64,000 bases of DNA. It comes from a virus. Its lineage: Duplodnaviria; Caudoviricetes. The notes under the pieces were generated by a model. The model was not told where the DNA came from, searched no databases, and saw nothing but the letters and a program-made list of their open reading frames with translations. Each line of letters starts with the position of its first letter. Positions within the stretch are counted from its first letter, which is position 1. Both the position numbers and the translations under genes were made by a program. Location: the IMG/VR virus record IMGVR_UViG_3300034170_000057, one strand, 5' to 3'. Positions 152 to 57,065 of this stretch are shown here, one piece after another.

Positions 152-1843
152 TCAGAGATTTTCTTCAATGACAATTTTCGACAGGGCCACAAGATGCTTG
201 CACAGGCCTACCGACATGCCGGGGTTTGTCCACACGGGAGGTTCGCCGTTGGAATAAATCAGGTACGCAGCACCGCAACGGGCGTTCGCATATTCCCACC
301 AATACACATAGTTTTCACAGTTATGAGCAATTAAGCCATTGGCTGCAAAACGATGCGGGCCGGGTACGGTGATATCGTAAACATGCTGCACACCAGCAAA
401 GGAAATATCTACGATTTCAGCCCATGCTTTGCGCGGGCGCGGTGGAGCTGCGTCGATACGGTTACGATGGTATAGGGACAGGGCGATGTTTTTCAGCGTG
501 TCACTCTGATTGGAGATTCGCAGCGCCCACATTTCTTTCGTGGATTCTGCCACACCGTAATCGTCGTCAATCACGCAGGTTTTAACACCGGCTTCGCGCT
601 CACGATAAAACGTGGTTTGCACGATTCCATATTCCATCAGTTTCCAGTTCAACTGATCGAGGTATTCATGCGCGCCGCGAATCAGAATGTCACCGTTCCT
701 GTACGTCGTACCGTCCGTGGCAATCAGCCCCGAAAGGTAGCCCATGGTTTGCTCGAATGTATCGAGTTTTACAGAGCGTTTGTTGTCGAACTTGTAGCGG
801 TGACATAACTCAATTGCACGCTGTGTGAACTGCACGTTCAAACCGTTTTCGCGGCCCTTTATTTCCGACACATCTTTGACAAGGCCGAGGGGAGTCAACA
901 CTTTCAAAATCGAATGTTTGTGGCCGAACAATTTCAGGTTCGGATAGCCAGTGGCGAACAGCGTACCGTCACCCTGCATAACACCGATGAAAAACGCTTC
1001 CCAATAATCTTGCGTGCGCTCAATCTTGGGTTGCTCAAAGGCGTTGGTCAGCAGCTTATCACCGACATTTAAATCCTGAACCTCTTCCCACTTCTCAAGG
1101 AATTTACGGTTTCCTAACGACACATGTTTCAGGAACTGGTGATCGCGAGTTGCCGTGATCGTCTGCCCGTTACTCAACGTGAGTTTGTAAACCTTTTTCT
1201 TGCCGGTATAAAACGGCGTAGTGCCTGCGAAAAGTTCGCCCTTGATGTTGTAGTTAATCGGGAAGTGTTCCGGCGCGTGCGGCTGTGCCAATTCGAAAAT
1301 TGTTTTCCAACCATGATCGGTCAGCACTTTCGTATCACCGGTCAAACACGTGCATTGCACAAGTACGCGCTTGTGTTTGTACAGTGGTTTGTCTTCACCG
1401 TTTTTGTCGAGGCCCACGATGTATGTTTCGTGGTAGCGCCGGACTTTATCAGGGCGGAACGGGTCATTCGTCCACATGATCCCTTTAACGGCTTTGCGGC
1501 CTGCTTTGGTCTTCGCGCTGCGGTAACGATGCGCTTCAACGTCCACCGCATTGTTCAAGCAAATCGGGAACGTATTCCGGATAAGTTCCTTGAGACTTTT
1601 ACCCTGACGTGTGAAGAACGTTTCCGGCATTGGGCGAGCGCCCAAGTTTTCGAATTTACGCAGCTTGTACGGAATGCCACGCACCTTCACTTGACCAGCG
1701 GAGCGCACCGGGGCGGCAGTAGATTTCCGCTTTCGCTCAGTGGTCTTTTCTGCTTCACGCGTGGCCTGTGTTTTCTTGGGTTTTGTGATGATGCGTTTTT
1801 TCTTTACTGATTGCACCTTCACTTTTTTAGTCTTGACTGCCAT
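152..1843 (-). CDS. SWIM-type zinc-finger protein interrupted by an intein
   Basis: After removing the intein the extein reads VQCT-CENY...GLCKHLVAL (CxC...CxH); Lys-rich N-terminus. Confidence 0.8.
   Translation of the reverse strand: MAVKTKKVKVQSVKKKRIITKPKKTQATREAEKTTERKRKSTAAPVRSAGQVKVRGIPYKLRKFENLGARPMPETFFTRQGKSLKELIRNTFPICLNNAVDVEAHRYRSAKTKAGRKAVKGIMWTNDPFRPDKVRRYHETYIVGLDKNGEDKPLYKHKRVLVQCTCLTGDTKVLTDHGWKTIFELAQPHAPEHFPINYNIKGELFAGTTPFYTGKKKVYKLTLSNGQTITATRDHQFLKHVSLGNRKFLEKWEEVQDLNVGDKLLTNAFEQPKIERTQDYWEAFFIGVMQGDGTLFATGYPNLKLFGHKHSILKVLTPLGLVKDVSEIKGRENGLNVQFTQRAIELCHRYKFDNKRSVKLDTFEQTMGYLSGLIATDGTTYRNGDILIRGAHEYLDQLNWKLMEYGIVQTTFYREREAGVKTCVIDDDYGVAESTKEMWALRISNQSDTLKNIALSLYHRNRIDAAPPRPRKAWAEIVDISFAGVQHVYDITVPGPHRFAANGLIAHNCENYVYWWEYANARCGAAYLIYSNGEPPVWTNPGMSVGLCKHLVALSKIVIEENL
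320..1348 (-). mobile_element. intein (343 aa) with LAGLIDADG homing endonuclease
   Basis: Block A CLTGDTKVLT, block B TATRDH, endonuclease blocks FFIGVMQGDG and YLSGLIATDG, block F VYDITV, block G IAHN followed by Cys+1. Confidence 0.93.
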
Positions 1844-2523
1844 TAGGCGTCCTCTAGGCGCTTCGTTACCCTTTCAAAATGGTACGGGTGCCCGGTTAAA
1901 ACCAGTAATTTGTTTTCCTTCTTTCGCTTCAGAATGTGTGGCAGTTTCAACCCGCTCAGATCCAGAATGCGGCTGCCCTTTTTAGGGATTTTATCCCGGT
2001 ACTCGTTGTACACGATGATATGCACTTTCGCGTCAGCCAGAGAATAGGAAAGCGTGGCAGACGGTGACGGCTCAAATCGGTCGAGGACGCATTTGCGCAC
2101 GTCGATTTTCATTTTCAATTTGCTGACTTGGTACGTCACGGTATGCAGCACACTTGGATCGACAACGAACGAAATATATCCGCCCGGTTTCAGGATGCGT
2201 TTCAAGTGGGCCATCATTTCCATATCCGCATTCCGCCACGCTTCAGGCCGCAACCAATTCATGGGGCCTAGAGCGTTGAGTTCTGGATATGCGAAAATAT
2301 AGGAAAAGCATTCGTCTTTGATTTTGCGCAGGTTATGCAGCAACGTACCCTGCCAGACGTTAATGTCTTCGTCTTCGTTGGCCCAGCGACGGAACGGCAC
2401 ATTCTGATTGTGGAAGGCGACGATAGATCCGTCGTGTTCTTCACAGCGTGCGATGGATGGGATATCCCCAACCACCACGCAGCCACAATTAAAATGATTA
2501 ATCATCGTGTCTAAGTGACTCAT
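1843..2523 (-). CDS. degenerate beta-class N6/N4 DNA methyltransferase-like protein
   Basis: QGTLLHNLRKIKDECFSYIFAYPE and LKRILKPGGYISFV match the MTase scaffold; DPPY and FxGxG are not intact. Start placed at ATG 2523 (GGTG RBS); ORF track starts at 2583. Confidence 0.5.
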   Translation of the reverse strand: MSHLDTMINHFNCGCVVVGDIPSIARCEEHDGSIVAFHNQNVPFRRWANEDEDINVWQGTLLHNLRKIKDECFSYIFAYPELNALGPMNWLRPEAWRNADMEMMAHLKRILKPGGYISFVVDPSVLHTVTYQVSKLKMKIDVRKCVLDRFEPSPSATLSYSLADAKVHIIVYNEYRDKIPKKGSRILDLSGLKLPHILKRKKENKLLVLTGHPYHFERVTKRLEDA

Positions 2524-2818
2524 GCATTTCACCGCCGTTTTCCCAGTGCTGCACGCGGCTGATAAAAAGTCCGTAGTCCACAATCACCGAGAGCGGTAGT
2601 TCGTTCAACATGCGGACAGGTTCATTATTCACGGTCACGTCGTAAATAAGACGCGGGATATTTTCGGAGGTATCGAGGCTGGCGACGAACGCGTAATACT
2701 GTTCGTTAAGCTCGACCGTGTGGTATATCAACACCGAGTCTTTTACCAGTTGCAATTGGTTCAAGAGGTTGGCTGATTTCTGGAATAGTTCCGAGAAACA
2801 CGGGGTTATTGTTGGCAT
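2498..2818 (-). CDS. hypothetical protein
   Basis: 106-aa ORF filling the gap between co-oriented genes; start uncertain (overlaps upstream gene). Confidence 0.45.
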   Translation of the reverse strand: MPTITPCFSELFQKSANLLNQLQLVKDSVLIYHTVELNEQYYAFVASLDTSENIPRLIYDVTVNNEPVRMLNELPLSVIVDYGLFISRVQHWENGGEMHESLRHDD

Positions 2819-55889: not shown

Positions 55890-55926
55890 GTCGGTTTGTG
55901 GTGCAATTTGCGGTTAGGGGGAATGT

Positions 55927-56715
55927 ATGGCTAAGGTGAAAAGTTCCGGTGTGAAAGTACGCACCGTGCGCGGGGGCGATGACGACGACGTTCGTGTTGA
56001 TGATCGCGGCAAACTTCGCAATAAACACCTTGACGACGGTCGTGGCCCATCCGTTAAGAAAAAGAAAAAGGTTAAAGTCGAAAAACACGAAGCAATCGTG
56101 ATCGAGGATAACACTTTCAAAGTTGGGCAAGATCCAATCAAGAAAAAGAAAAAGAAAGCGCTGGAAGGGGAATTGCTTCCCGGCTCCAAATCTCTGCGCA
56201 CAGAACTCATGTTGCCAGCTGGCGGCGTAGCTCTGAAAAAGAAAGCGAAAGGCAAAGCCACCACGATTGCAGCGGTGGAAGAATACGTACACCTACCGGC
56301 CCCGGTCGATGAATACGATGCGGAAACTCGCCGTATTTTTGAGCAATTGATTCAGACTGCTCAACGTCTCGAAGAACAGATGGAAGATCGCATTTACAAC
56401 AAAGACGTTTATGCGCTGAATACCATCTATTCGCAGATTCGCGAAGTGATTGCCGACCTGCGTGCAACCCGCGATATTTCTGCACAGGTTTCCGAACTGG
56501 AAGCGATTGTGATGCGTCCGTATCAGCAACTGATCGCACAAGGTTTTACCGATATTTACTTCCACATGATGGGCGCGATTTCCAAGTTTATCAAAGACGA
56601 AGACGAACGCGCAGAAGTACACAAAAAACTGAAAGATACTTTGGGTGAAGTTGCGGCCTCCGTGACTGAAGAATATCCAAAGGCATTGGATCGCATGAGG
56701 AAGGTATTGCTATGA
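55927..56715 (+). CDS. helical protein with poly-Lys N-terminus (terminase small subunit-like?)
   Basis: KKKKKVKV, KKKKKKA, helical C-domain; coupled to an HNH gene. Confidence 0.55.
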   Translation: MAKVKSSGVKVRTVRGGDDDDVRVDDRGKLRNKHLDDGRGPSVKKKKKVKVEKHEAIVIEDNTFKVGQDPIKKKKKKALEGELLPGSKSLRTELMLPAGGVALKKKAKGKATTIAAVEEYVHLPAPVDEYDAETRRIFEQLIQTAQRLEEQMEDRIYNKDVYALNTIYSQIREVIADLRATRDISAQVSELEAIVMRPYQQLIAQGFTDIYFHMMGAISKFIKDEDERAEVHKKLKDTLGEVAASVTEEYPKALDRMRKVLL

Positions 56716-57065
56716 GGCCGACGCGTGTTGCCCCTAAACGGGTTAAGAGTGTTGCAAGCGGGCCGAAGAAAGCAAAAGTGGTGGCTAAAGTACGCCGCGC
56801 CTCTTCCGTTGTTTACGGCGACCGCTCCGAGTGGATGGCAATTCGTGCGAAGGTAATTGCACGCGACGGAAACAAATGCACGAAATGTCCGAACACCACT
56901 TATTTGCAGGTCGATCACATTCGCCCCGCCAGTGCTGGTGGACAGACCGTAATGCACAACCTGCGTACCCTTTGCGCCGACTGCCACGCCGCACAACACA
57001 GCAGCCGACATTCCAAACATCTAATCCTAGCGAAGAAGAAAAAAGATGCTAAAGATGCCACCTGA
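56712..57065 (+). CDS. HNH endonuclease
   Basis: RDGNKCTKC..QVDHIRP..GG..NLRTLCADCH. Confidence 0.92.
   Translation: MRPTRVAPKRVKSVASGPKKAKVVAKVRRASSVVYGDRSEWMAIRAKVIARDGNKCTKCPNTTYLQVDHIRPASAGGQTVMHNLRTLCADCHAAQHSSRHSKHLILAKKKKDAKDAT

What the first reader, a model, noticed from the sequence alone, without database searches (positions are those of the whole stretch)
152..57065. Poly-Lys (NLS-like) tags appended to many DNA-metabolism proteins, alongside poly-Glu partners
Seen: Lys-rich terminal extensions or patches on Topo B (KKLKKTK..TTKKKKS), Topo A (MAKVKTKTKEVAKVKK), clamp loader (MATDKVKKKK), RuvC (MARKRKAKAK), primase C-terminus (KKKKAK..PKKKK), Cas4-like C-terminus (KPKKLKKK..KAKKTK), zincin (five K-runs), SWIM protein, HNH, and the 55927, 25526 and 4810 products. 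Cellular homologues normally lack these tails. The same window encodes poly-Glu/acidic proteins (4255, 9617, 21195) and H1/AT-hook proteins. Inference: an electrostatic addressing code that concentrates enzymes on phage DNA or in a condensate-like replication compartment, with acidic proteins as chaperones.
Basis: partly seen in the sequence, partly recalled or inferred. Interest (0 to 1): 0.76.

Follow-up and report, generated by a model that had tools for sequence, protein, structure and literature searches.

The report
Lysine tails on phage DNA enzymes
In this giant Pseudomonas phage and a large clade of relatives, many DNA-handling enzymes carry floppy lysine-rich end-tails that are kept by selection and most likely hold the enzymes on phage DNA; a true "address code" for a replication droplet is possible but unproven.

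Summary
The window is the replication module of an undescribed Lu11/HRDY3-like Pseudomonas jumbo phage.

- **Frequency:** 20 of 73 proteins carry Lys-dense segments, 16 of them at a terminus. Composition-preserving shuffles give 4.5±1.5 terminal cases.
- **Extra to the catalytic cores:** topo II A and B and the clamp loader each have about 35 residues that E. coli and T4 homologues lack.
- **Conserved by position, not sequence:** across relatives, net charge is kept while sequence drifts. For example, tail identity is 15-33% against 70-77% for the cores when compared with Lu11.
- **Position can switch:** RuvC has the tail at the N-terminus in Lu11-like phages and at the C-terminus in PaBG-like phages.
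- **Enriched on DNA proteins:** in the complete genomes of Lu11 and HRDY3, terminal tails sit on 10/26 and 10/27 DNA or transcription proteins. They sit on 0/23 and 0/24 virion proteins (p≈1e-4).
- **Clade trait:** distant phage topo II lacks the tails.

The best explanation is a selected polycationic DNA tether, the kind known from actinobacterial Ku and TopA and from the phi29 terminal protein. The condensate/address-code reading rests only on co-occurring polyelectrolyte proteins: a conserved Lys-rich/poly-Glu/Lys-rich gene trio, a six-AT-hook protein, and SSB tails with alternating charge blocks. It remains untested.

This scan noted the same pattern before in phage PaBG. I found no paper describing it.

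The parts
15832..17430 (-). Topo II subunit A (ParC/GyrA-like). The Lys-rich N-terminal tail is aa 1-38 (nt 17317-17430).
   Evidence: Pfam DNA_topoisoIV covers aa 66-502. PDB alignments start at residue 45-57, matching GyrA residue 23 and T4 gp52 residue 8. 112 of 120 homologues carry a net-positive extension.
17430..19538 (-). Topo II subunit B (GyrB/ParE-like). The Lys-rich N-terminal tail is aa 1-40 (nt 19419-19538). There is also a conserved internal K-loop at aa 368-376.
   Evidence: Pfam hits to HATPase_c, DNA_gyraseB and Toprim. Residue 44 aligns with E. coli GyrB residue 8. The tail is kept in HRDY3, Lu11, PaBG and Alexandra.
36691..37878 (+). Clamp-loader ATPase. The Lys-rich N-terminal tail is aa 1-36 (nt 36691-36798).
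   Evidence: Pfam DNA_pol3_delta2 and AAA. Residue 41 aligns with E. coli tau/gamma residue 5. The start at 36691 was set by the orthologues.
26561..27196 (-). RuvC-type Holliday junction resolvase. The basic N-terminal tail is aa 1-23 (nt 27128-27196).
   Evidence: PHROG 18317 core covers aa 21-211. The AF2 model has pLDDT 90, and residues 1-22 have no secondary structure. Foldseek top hits are bacterial RuvC. PaBG-like homologues carry the tail at the C-terminus instead.
23096..24238 (+). DnaG-type primase. The Lys-rich C-terminal tail is aa ~326-380 (nt 24071-24238).
   Evidence: Pfam Toprim_2 and Zn_ribbon_DnaG. Against Lu11 the tail is 15% identical and the core 72%, while net charge is kept.
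21875..23038 (-). Cas4-like PD-(D/E)XK nuclease. The Lys-rich C-terminal tail is aa ~345-387 (nt 21875-22006).
   Evidence: Pfam PDDEXK_1. Tail net charge is +14, against +12 in both HRDY3 and Lu11. Tail identity to Lu11 is 22%, against 75% for the core.
34894..36141 (+). Zincin-like metallopeptidase (HEIGH motif). The N-terminal region aa 1-91 has five K-runs and 30 Lys (nt 34894-35166).
   Evidence: PHROG 17197 'peptidase' core covers aa 92-413. The HEXXH motif is seen. The protein atlas gives zincin-like clusters. The tail is kept in HRDY3, Lu11 and PaBG.
56712..57065 (+). HNH endonuclease. The N-terminus is basic (aa 1-30, net +10). The C-terminal tail is aa 102-117 (nt 57015-57065).
   Evidence: Pfam HNH covers aa 56-97. 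The tails are conserved in HRDY3 and Lu11.
152..1843 (-). The Lys-rich N-terminal tail is aa 1-45 (nt 1709-1843).
   Evidence: Pfam Intein_splicing covers aa 180-508. Orthologues are about 220 aa, lack the intein and have the same tail. No SWIM hit was found.
4810..5367 (-). K2, the first gene of the charged trio. It has an all-beta core (aa 41-147) flanked by Lys-rich disordered N- and C-tails.
   Evidence: PHROG 22271, unknown function. AF2 core pLDDT is 86-92 and the C-terminal tail (aa 150-185) 35-40. No PDB fold match. The trio order is conserved in 9 IMG/VR loci.
4255..4662 (-). Poly-Glu protein, the middle gene of the trio. It has a Lys-rich N-tail (aa 1-22, nt 4597-4662), a short helical segment, and about 70 consecutive Glu (nt 4255-4476).
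   Evidence: Sequence. Orthologues in HRDY3, Lu11, PaBG, L018 and L020-L030 have 100-115 residues of Asp/Glu.
3517..4116 (-). K1, the third gene of the trio, with 29% Lys. It has a conserved 58-aa N-terminal domain predicted to be helical, about 8 repeats of the type (D/E)E(A/K)PAKKSKK, and an acidic-aromatic C-terminal tip DYDEFED.
   Evidence: PHROG 36478. Alignment A4. The tip is conserved as EYDDFE, DFDDFE and DDDFEDFDDLD.
48688..50133 (+). 481-aa polycation (22% Lys, no Asp) with six AT-hook-type repeats EKRKPGRPKKV and Ala/Pro/Lys H1-like stretches.
   Evidence: Sequence. The Lu11 orthologue has KKKPGRPKK repeats. No Pfam domain.
12607..13194 (-). Protein with a helical N-half and an Ala/Pro/Lys (AKAPKAK) C-terminal tail, aa 116-195 (nt 12607-12849).
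   Evidence: The tail is kept in HRDY3 and Lu11 with 36-48% identity and net charge +12 to +19.
55927..56715 (+). Unknown protein (PHROG 23026). The N-terminal 112 aa carry three K-runs (nt 55927-56262).
   Evidence: Net charge of the region is +16, +16, +14 and +20 in the window phage, HRDY3, Lu11 and PaBG.
31205..32209 (+). Unknown protein with a Lys-rich C-tail, aa 305-334 (nt 32117-32209).
20208..20582 (-). Small unknown protein with a basic C-tail, aa 105-124 (nt 20208-20270).
5373..6314 (-). Unknown protein with a short Lys-rich C-tail (nt 5373-5432).
   Evidence: The tail is present in HRDY3 and absent in Lu11.
25526..26065 (-). Cys-rich unknown protein (PHROG 19006) with an internal K6 run at aa 50-59. 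It is not terminal.
21195..21878 (-). Acidic protein with an Asp/Glu/Ser tract at aa 85-132. The Lu11 orthologue adds a KKKLKKKKRK C-tail.
9617..11506 (-). 629-aa protein with a Glu/Gln-rich tract at aa 457-509.
   Evidence: The tract is conserved in HRDY3 and Lu11. Pfam gives only weak low-complexity hits.

Best explanation
The Lys-rich ends are disordered polycationic appendages added to otherwise ordinary enzymes. They were acquired in the ancestor of a large clade of shell-less jumbo phages (Lu11, HRDY3, PaBG, the Erwinia/Dickeya 'Alexandra-like' phages and many metagenomic relatives). Selection keeps their charge, not their sequence.

The most likely mechanism is non-specific electrostatic binding to the DNA backbone. 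This would raise the local concentration and residence time of topoisomerase II, clamp loader, primase, RuvC, nucleases and similar proteins on replicating phage DNA. That DNA is itself coated by phage polycations: the AT-hook protein, the Ala/Pro/Lys proteins, K1 and K2.

**Shown here:** the presence of the tails, their extra-domain position, their enrichment on DNA proteins, their conservation of charge, and their positional switching.

**Inferred:** that they bind DNA, and that this benefits replication.
For: 1. **Extra to the catalytic cores.** PDB and PHROG boundaries show this. RuvC residues 1-22 are unstructured in a model with pLDDT 90.
2. **Enriched on DNA/transcription proteins.**
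   - Lu11: 10/26 DNA/transcription proteins against 0/23 virion proteins and 1/20 other enzymes, Fisher p=1.3e-4.
   - HRDY3: 10/27 against 0/24 and 2/25, p=3.4e-4.
3. **More terminal clustering than composition gives.** Window 16 against 4.5±1.5; Lu11 27 against 11.0±2.7.
4. **Charge conserved while sequence drifts.**
   - Topo A tail 33% identical against 77% for the core, with net +9 in both.
   - Cas4 22% against 75%; primase 15% against 72%.
   - 112 of 120 topo A homologues have an extension of at least 10 aa, all net positive, in 47 non-redundant sequences.
5. **Position is interchangeable.** RuvC has an N-tail in 23 homologues. It has a C-tail of similar composition in PaBG and four others.
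6. **Clade-specific trait.** Median topo A tail charge is +9 in-clade against 0 in distant phages (p=4e-9); topo B +5 against +1.
7. **Not slippage debris.** K-runs are coded by interleaved AAA/AAG, the longest A-run is 7, and AAG is used more inside runs (p=0.01).
8. **Experimental precedent.** Lys-rich tails act as non-specific DNA tethers in M. smegmatis Ku (PMC3553676), Streptomyces TopA (cited in PMC6821194) and the phi29 terminal protein N-domain, which targets the nucleoid (PMC4974454).
Against: - No binding or localisation data exist for any of these proteins.
- Two tail-bearers are not obvious DNA enzymes: the zincin peptidase, which has the largest tail, and a Nudix hydrolase in HRDY3.
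- Several DNA enzymes have no tail anywhere in the clade. The 5'-3' exonuclease is one. SbcD and the sliding clamp in Lu11 are others.
- The extreme preference for Lys over Arg is not required for DNA affinity and is not explained by GC content. In topo A tails the ratio is 1376:64, against 2.4:1 in the cores.
- The conserved polyanion partners suggest something beyond simple tethering. These are the poly-Glu protein and the SSB tails of alternating Asp-blocks and Lys-blocks.
Confidence: 0.55

Rival explanations
1. Address code for a membrane-less replication compartment. Phage polycations (K1, K2, the AT-hook protein), polyanions (the poly-Glu protein, acidic tracts), block-polyampholyte SSB tails and DNA form a complex coacervate. 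Lys tails would then be partition signals that enrich client enzymes in it.
For: - The K2/poly-Glu/K1 trio keeps its order in all 9 sufficiently long IMG/VR loci and in HRDY3, Lu11 and PaBG.
- SSB tails across the clade alternate Asp blocks of 8-10 residues with KPKKKK blocks.
- A non-DNA enzyme, the zincin, carries the largest tail.
- The strong Lys-over-Arg bias fits dynamic, liquid-like electrostatic interactions (own knowledge, not tested).
- Phage use of phase separation has only just been reported, for SPO1 (PMC13401047).
Against: - No evidence of any compartment exists.
- Topo A and topo B tail charges correlate only weakly across 43 non-redundant genomes (rho 0.29, p 0.06).
- The set of tailed proteins differs between subclades. 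PaBG-like phages lack the Cas4 and primase tails.
- A contig whose topo A has no tail still encodes the polyanion and a K2-like protein.
Confidence: 0.2
2. Protein-protein docking. The Lys tails bind the acidic blocks or acidic-aromatic tips of the phage SSB (…SxWDDDE), of K1 (…DYDEFED) or of the poly-Glu protein. Enzymes would then be recruited to an SSB-centred hub and not directly to DNA.
For: - The acidic-aromatic tips are conserved in K1 and in SSB across the clade.
- They resemble the C-terminal tips of E. coli SSB, T4 gp32 and T7 gp2.5, which recruit partners (PMC7145534, PMC10359462).
Against: - Known SSB-tip partners use folded pockets, not polylysine.
- Many tailed proteins act on duplex DNA (topo II, RuvC, HNH).
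- No interaction data exist.
Confidence: 0.1
3. Targeting elsewhere. The tails direct co-packaging with DNA into the capsid for ejection into the next host, or bind anionic membrane lipids, RNA or polyphosphate.
For: - Polybasic peptides bind any polyanion.
- The PaBG virion contains a giant helicase-like protein encoded next to this module (PMC7412058, Table 1).
- Tryptic MALDI would miss Lys-rich proteins.
Against: - None of the 14 PaBG virion bands is a tailed DNA enzyme.
- Annotated virion proteins carry no tails.
- The putative 'polyphosphate kinase' neighbour has no Pfam support.
Confidence: 0.05
4. No protein-level function. The tails are neutral low-complexity growth by slippage, or A-rich 5' coding regions that only boost translation initiation.
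For: - Lys codons are A-rich.
- Many tails start straight after Met-Ala.
- Low-complexity regions turn over quickly.
Against: - Half of the tails are C-terminal.
- N-tails have a median length of 40 aa.
- A-runs are interrupted, with 7 at most.
- Charge is conserved over cores that have diverged to about 40% identity.
- There is a strong functional bias towards DNA proteins.
- RuvC switches between N- and C-terminal tails.
Confidence: 0.03

Closest known systems
Lys-rich low-complexity tails of actinobacterial DNA proteins (M. smegmatis Ku PAKKA repeats, PMC3553676; Streptomyces TopA C-terminal lysine repeats and HupB, as summarised in PMC6821194)
   Same: - Disordered Lys/Ala/Pro-rich terminal extensions on DNA-processing enzymes.
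- Absent from orthologues in other lineages.
- Lineage-specific and variable in sequence.
- Shown to give non-specific DNA binding and processivity.
   Different: - Here they sit on a dozen or more proteins of one virus, at either terminus.
- They include a peptidase.
- They are accompanied by dedicated polyanionic proteins.
- No biochemistry has been done.
N-terminal basic domain of phi29-type terminal proteins (nucleoid targeting; also works as a eukaryotic NLS; PMC4974454)
   Same: A phage replication protein uses a basic N-terminal region for sequence-independent DNA binding. This places the replication machinery on the nucleoid. It scores as an NLS without any nucleus being present.
   Different: - phi29 has one protein with a partly helical domain and one critical Lys.
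- Here there are many enzymes with low-complexity tails.
- In phi29 the polymerase is recruited through the terminal protein, not through a tail of its own.
Linker histone H1 C-terminal domain with prothymosin-alpha, and charge-block IDR partitioning in eukaryotic condensates (own knowledge; Lys-rich nucleolar IDRs in PMC11528048)
   Same: - A polycation/polyanion pair of disordered proteins.
- Lys-rich tails acting as electrostatic sorting signals.
- Blocky charge patterning, seen here in the SSB tails and the K1 repeats.
   Different: - No homology. H1 and Hc1 Pfam domains are absent.
- The host is a bacterium.
- Interaction and demixing are untested.
Acidic C-terminal tails or tips of SSB proteins (E. 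coli SSB, T4 gp32, T7 gp2.5; PMC7145534, PMC10359462, PMC12424635)
   Same: Electrostatic tails organise a phage replisome. K1 and the clade's SSB end in acidic-aromatic tips.
   Different: The polarity is reversed. In this clade the client enzymes carry the charged (basic) tail, and the acidic elements are far longer.
Protein import into the Chimalliviridae phage nucleus
   Same: A jumbo phage must concentrate its DNA enzymes with its genome.
   Different: - That system uses a protein shell and a dedicated importer, and no linear basic signal is known for it (own knowledge).
- The annotated Lu11, HRDY3 and PaBG records list a sigma factor. They list no shell protein or multisubunit RNA polymerase.

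Membership tests
Lys-rich low-complexity DNA-tethering tails (Ku/TopA/HupB type) | A Lys-dominated low-complexity segment at a terminus of a DNA-processing protein, outside the catalytic fold. | tested here: met
   Domain boundaries from PDB, Pfam and PHROG. The RuvC model has an unstructured segment at residues 1-22.
Lys-rich low-complexity DNA-tethering tails (Ku/TopA/HupB type) | Lineage-specific: absent from orthologues outside the lineage. | tested here: met
   E. 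coli and T4 homologues lack the tails. Distant phage topo II has a median tail charge of 0, against +9 in-clade.
Lys-rich low-complexity DNA-tethering tails (Ku/TopA/HupB type) | Composition and charge conserved while sequence and length drift. | tested here: met
Lys-rich low-complexity DNA-tethering tails (Ku/TopA/HupB type) | The tail confers non-specific DNA binding or processivity. | not testable with these tools
   Needs EMSA or single-molecule assays with and without the tail.
Classical nuclear localisation signal | A K-K/R-x-K/R cluster recognised by importin for transport through a nuclear pore. | tested here: not met
   The motif is trivially present. The hosts of the relatives are Pseudomonas, Erwinia and Dickeya, which have no importin or nucleus. 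This is a resemblance only.
Chimalliviridae phage-nucleus cargo | The genome encodes a chimallin shell, an importer and multisubunit RNA polymerases. | not tested
   No whole genome is held for the window. Annotated relatives list a sigma factor and none of these genes, but absence from annotation is weak evidence.
AT-hook proteins (for 48688-50133) | Repeated G-R-P core flanked by Lys/Arg. | tested here: met
   Six copies of EKRKPGRPKKV plus one KKVGRPKN. The Lu11 orthologue has KKKPGRPKK three times. The Pfam scan returned no family, as is usual for so short a motif.
Linker histone H1/H5 or chlamydial Hc1 | Winged-helix globular domain (PF00538) or Hc1 domain (PF07432). | tested here: not met
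   No Pfam family for 3517-4116, 12607-13194 or 48688-50133. The likeness is compositional.
Polyacidic histone-chaperone-like partner (prothymosin-alpha or nucleoplasmin tract type) | A long uninterrupted Asp/Glu tract, co-encoded with polybasic partners. | tested here: met
   About 70 Glu residues. The gene lies between two Lys-rich genes in every relative examined.
Polyacidic histone-chaperone-like partner (prothymosin-alpha or nucleoplasmin tract type) | Direct binding to the polybasic proteins and handing them over to DNA. | not testable with these tools
   Requires biochemistry.

The most novel reading that the evidence does not exclude
The tails, the conserved K2/poly-Glu/K1 trio, the six-AT-hook polycation and the block-polyampholyte SSB together form a phage-built complex coacervate. 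This would be a shell-less 'viroplasm' for a whole clade of jumbo phages. A Lys tail at either terminus would be the transferable partition signal that recruits enzymes, including a protease, into it. The strong Lys-over-Arg bias would keep the compartment fluid.
Probability: 0.2. Interest if true: 0.85.

Novelty: new variant of a known kind. Interest (0 to 1): 0.6.

Why it matters
Nucleus-forming jumbo phages solve the problem of keeping enzymes with the genome by building a protein shell. How the many shell-less jumbo phages organise replication is unknown.

Here a clade of hundreds of genomes shows a simple, sequence-readable trait: charged tails on a fixed set of enzymes, together with dedicated polycation and polyanion genes. 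The trait can be tested directly in culturable members (Lu11 in P. putida, PaBG in PAO1, the Erwinia phages).

- **If the tails are only DNA tethers,** this is a clear viral case of a principle known from actinobacteria, and a source of portable DNA-affinity tags.
- **If they are partition signals,** it would be among the first electrostatic protein-sorting codes described in a bacterial virus.

Tried and rejected
**Steps that failed or gave nothing**
- No whole genome is held for the window. Genome-wide tests were therefore run on the complete relatives Lu11 and HRDY3.
- Choosing the longest ORF picked antisense artefacts, for example 8462-11629(+) and 4225-4668(+) opposite Glu-rich genes. 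It was replaced by a codon-usage caller that reproduces the Lu11 annotation.
- Complex prediction with the poly-Glu helical segment as the scored partner, alongside the K1 N-domain and the K2 core: no verdict, score 0.00 with low pLDDT. This is not evidence either way.
- K2 fold: all-beta core, but no significant PDB match and no usable atlas hit.
- The zincin is not recognisably a SprT/Spartan-type DNA-dependent protease. Only generic zincin-like clusters were found.
- A SWIM domain was not confirmed.

**Ideas tested and dropped**
- Polyphosphate link: the orthologue of the Lu11 'putative polyphosphate kinase', 8426-9550, has no Pfam hit.
- Slippage origin: rejected by the interleaved AAA/AAG coding.
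- Translation-enhancer origin: rejected by the C-terminal tails and by tail length.
- GC content as the cause of the Lys-over-Arg bias: rejected, rho -0.16, not significant.
- Coordinated scaling of tails between topo A and topo B: only weak, rho 0.29, p 0.06, without phylogenetic correction.

**Literature**
- Searches found no description of these tails in Lu11- or PaBG-group phages.

Full report
**What the window is.** Genes run on the minus strand up to about 27.2 kb and on the plus strand afterwards. The topoisomerase II genes match Pseudomonas phage HRDY3 (78% nt), Lu11 (75%), PaBG (66%) and the Dickeya/Erwinia 'Alexandra-like' jumbo phages (65%). No record matches closely over long stretches. 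The window is therefore an undescribed member of the Lu11 group. It is collinear with HRDY3 137.8-199.7 kb and Lu11 127.9-68.3 kb. No whole genome is held for it, so I fetched Lu11 and HRDY3 completely, 150 kb of PaBG and 28 kb of Alexandra. My codon-usage gene caller reproduces the Lu11 annotation.

**Check of the observation.** I defined a Lys segment as at least 5 Lys and net charge of at least +5 in 12 residues.
- 20 of 73 window proteins have one, and 16 have one within 40 residues of an end.
- Residue shuffles within each protein give 10.7±2.1 proteins with any segment and 4.5±1.5 with a terminal one. The maxima in 500 shuffles are 17 and 10.
- Corrections: the clamp loader starts at 36691. 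'SWIM' has no Pfam support, and that gene carries an intein. The 25526 run is internal. 'H1-like' is compositional only, with no Pfam domain. The AT-hooks in 48688-50133 are genuine motifs, six copies of EKRKPGRPKKV.
- The acidic proteins are as described.

**The tails are additions to normal enzymes.**
- Topo A residue 57 aligns with E. coli GyrA residue 23, and residue 47 with T4 gp52 residue 8.
- Topo B residue 44 aligns with GyrB residue 8.
- Clamp loader residue 41 aligns with tau residue 5.
- PHROG family cores begin at residue 21 of RuvC and residue 92 of the peptidase.
- An AlphaFold model of RuvC (pLDDT 90) has no secondary structure before residue 23. Its fold matches bacterial RuvC of 154-166 residues.

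**Selection on charge, not sequence.**
- Orthologues in HRDY3 and Lu11 keep the tail at the same end, and often PaBG and Alexandra do too.
- Against Lu11, tail identity is far below core identity: topo A 33% against 77%, Cas4 22% against 75%, primase 15% against 72%, clamp loader 28% against 70%. Lys number and net charge are nevertheless retained.
- Among 120 database homologues of topo A (54-93% identical), 112 have an N-extension of at least 10 residues. All 112 are net positive and 101 are +5 or more. They fall into 47 non-redundant sequences.
- In those tails Lys:Arg is 1376:64, against 2.4:1 in the cores.
- RuvC homologues fall into three states: an N-terminal tail (23), a C-terminal tail of similar make-up (PaBG and four others), or none. 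SbcC has a C-tail only in PaBG.
- K-runs are written with interleaved AAA and AAG and have no A-run longer than 7. AAG is used more inside runs than outside (58% against 66% AAA, p=0.01). This argues against slippage debris.

- Lu11: terminal Lys segments occur on 10/26 annotated DNA/transcription proteins, 0/23 virion proteins and 1/20 other enzymes. Fisher p=1.3e-4.
- HRDY3: 10/27, 0/24 and 2/25, p=3.4e-4.
- The exceptions are the zincin peptidase and a Nudix hydrolase.
- Not all DNA enzymes are tailed. The 5'-3' exonuclease has no tail anywhere in the clade.

**Phylogenetic range.** I analysed 80 IMG/VR loci around topo A.
- Phages whose topo A is at least 40% identical have median tail charges of +9 (topo A) and +5 (topo B). 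More distant phages have 0 and +1 (p=4e-9 and 3e-8, not phylogenetically corrected).
- Subclades differ in which proteins are tailed. PaBG-like phages lack the Cas4 and primase tails and carry the RuvC tail at the C-terminus.
- Topo A and topo B tail charges correlate only weakly (rho 0.29, p 0.06).
- The Lys preference does not track GC content.

**Accompanying polyelectrolyte proteins.**
- Genes 4810-5367 (K2), 4255-4662 (poly-Glu) and 3517-4116 (K1) form a trio. The same order is found in HRDY3, Lu11, PaBG and all nine sufficiently long IMG/VR loci.
- K2 has an all-beta core of unknown fold between disordered Lys tails.
- K1 has a conserved 58-residue N-terminal domain predicted to be helical, about eight (D/E)E(A/K)PAKKSKK repeats, and an acidic-aromatic tip (DYDEFED).
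- The clade's SSB lies outside the window. Its tail alternates Asp blocks and KPKKKK blocks and ends in SxWDDDE.
- A contig whose topo A lacks a tail still encodes the polyanion and a K2-like protein.

**Interpretation.** The established behaviour of Lys-rich low-complexity tails is non-specific DNA binding. The evidence comes from M. smegmatis Ku (PMC3553676), Streptomyces TopA and the general survey (PMC6821194), and the phi29 terminal protein N-domain, which targets the nucleoid and doubles as an NLS (PMC4974454).
- This explains the enrichment on DNA enzymes, the indifference to sequence and terminus, and the conserved charge. I hold it as the best explanation (0.55).
- The condensate/address-code idea (0.2) gains from the trio, the block-polyampholyte SSB, the tailed peptidase and the Lys-over-Arg bias. 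It has no direct support, and the weak co-variation between proteins does not favour a single genome-wide code.
- Docking to the acidic tips of SSB or K1 (0.1), other targets such as the capsid, membrane or polyphosphate (0.05), and non-functional origin (0.03) are less likely.

**Novelty.**
- My literature searches found no description of these tails in this phage group. Phage use of phase separation has only just been reported, for SPO1 (PMC13401047).
- The scan itself noted the same phenomenon earlier in PaBG (e1-1956481, e1-1991529) and in another lineage (e1-4079866). I re-tested the PaBG claims on the sequences and they hold.
- The kind of element is known. Its proteome-wide and clade-wide deployment in a virus, with dedicated polyion partners, is a new variant.

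Noticed in passing
window 152-1843 (-): The Cys-rich protein with a Lys tail is 563 aa here, but about 220 aa in HRDY3, Lu11 and PaBG. The extra part (aa 180-508) matches Pfam Intein_splicing (E 2e-14), so this looks like an intein insertion specific to this phage.
   Followed up: partly
window 58139-64000 (+), runs off the end: A giant protein of about 2000 aa with SNF2-related and Helicase_C domains, plus acidic tracts at aa 38-58 and 1225-1243. A 221-kDa helicase-like protein of about the size of its PaBG counterpart was found in purified virions (PMC7412058, Table 1, listed as gp202; the match is by size and description, not by sequence). It may therefore be a packaged and ejected protein.
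   Followed up: partly
window 48688-50133 (+): A 481-aa protein with no Asp and six near-identical AT-hook units (AAEKRKPGRPKKV) spaced by Ala/Pro linkers. The HRDY3 and Lu11 counterparts differ in repeat number.
   Followed up: partly
window 3517-4116 (-); also the SSB genes of Lu11 (L003), HRDY3 (L009) and PaBG (L015): K1 and the clade's SSB both end in short acidic-aromatic tips (DYDEFED; SxWDDDE). These resemble the partner-recruiting tips of E. coli SSB, T4 gp32 and T7 gp2.5.
   Followed up: partly
L016 (PaBG 120.2-122.8 kb): PaBG encodes two tRNA-Lys(UUU) and one tRNA-Asp among its five tRNAs. This fits a heavy demand for Lys and Asp codons. There are no tRNAs in this window.
   Followed up: no
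window 54574-54960 (+): A 128-aa ORF matches residues 249-302 of the HRDY3 major head protein at 55% identity. It looks like a stand-alone capsid-protein fragment, as another reader of this genome also noted.
   Followed up: partly
window 24204-24518 and 24518-24814 (+): Two adjacent small genes both match the single HRDY3 gene 160718-161014 (30% and 37%). This looks like a local tandem duplication next to the primase.
   Followed up: no
window 4225-4668 (+) and 8462-11629 (+): Long antisense ORFs opposite the Glu-rich genes. They encode Phe/Leu-rich or Arg-rich nonsense and would mislead annotation based on the longest ORF.
   Followed up: yes
L010 (HRDY3 152079-153960): In the HRDY3 record, topo II A is split into two or three ORFs, while it is intact here and in Lu11. 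This is probably a frameshift or a sequencing error in that record.
   Followed up: no
L080, L081 and L078 (IMG/VR relatives with topo A about 41-43% identical): Their topo tails are Arg-rich rather than Lys-rich despite low GC (0.39-0.40 in two of them). Positive charge is the conserved property, and the Lys preference is lineage-specific.
   Followed up: partly
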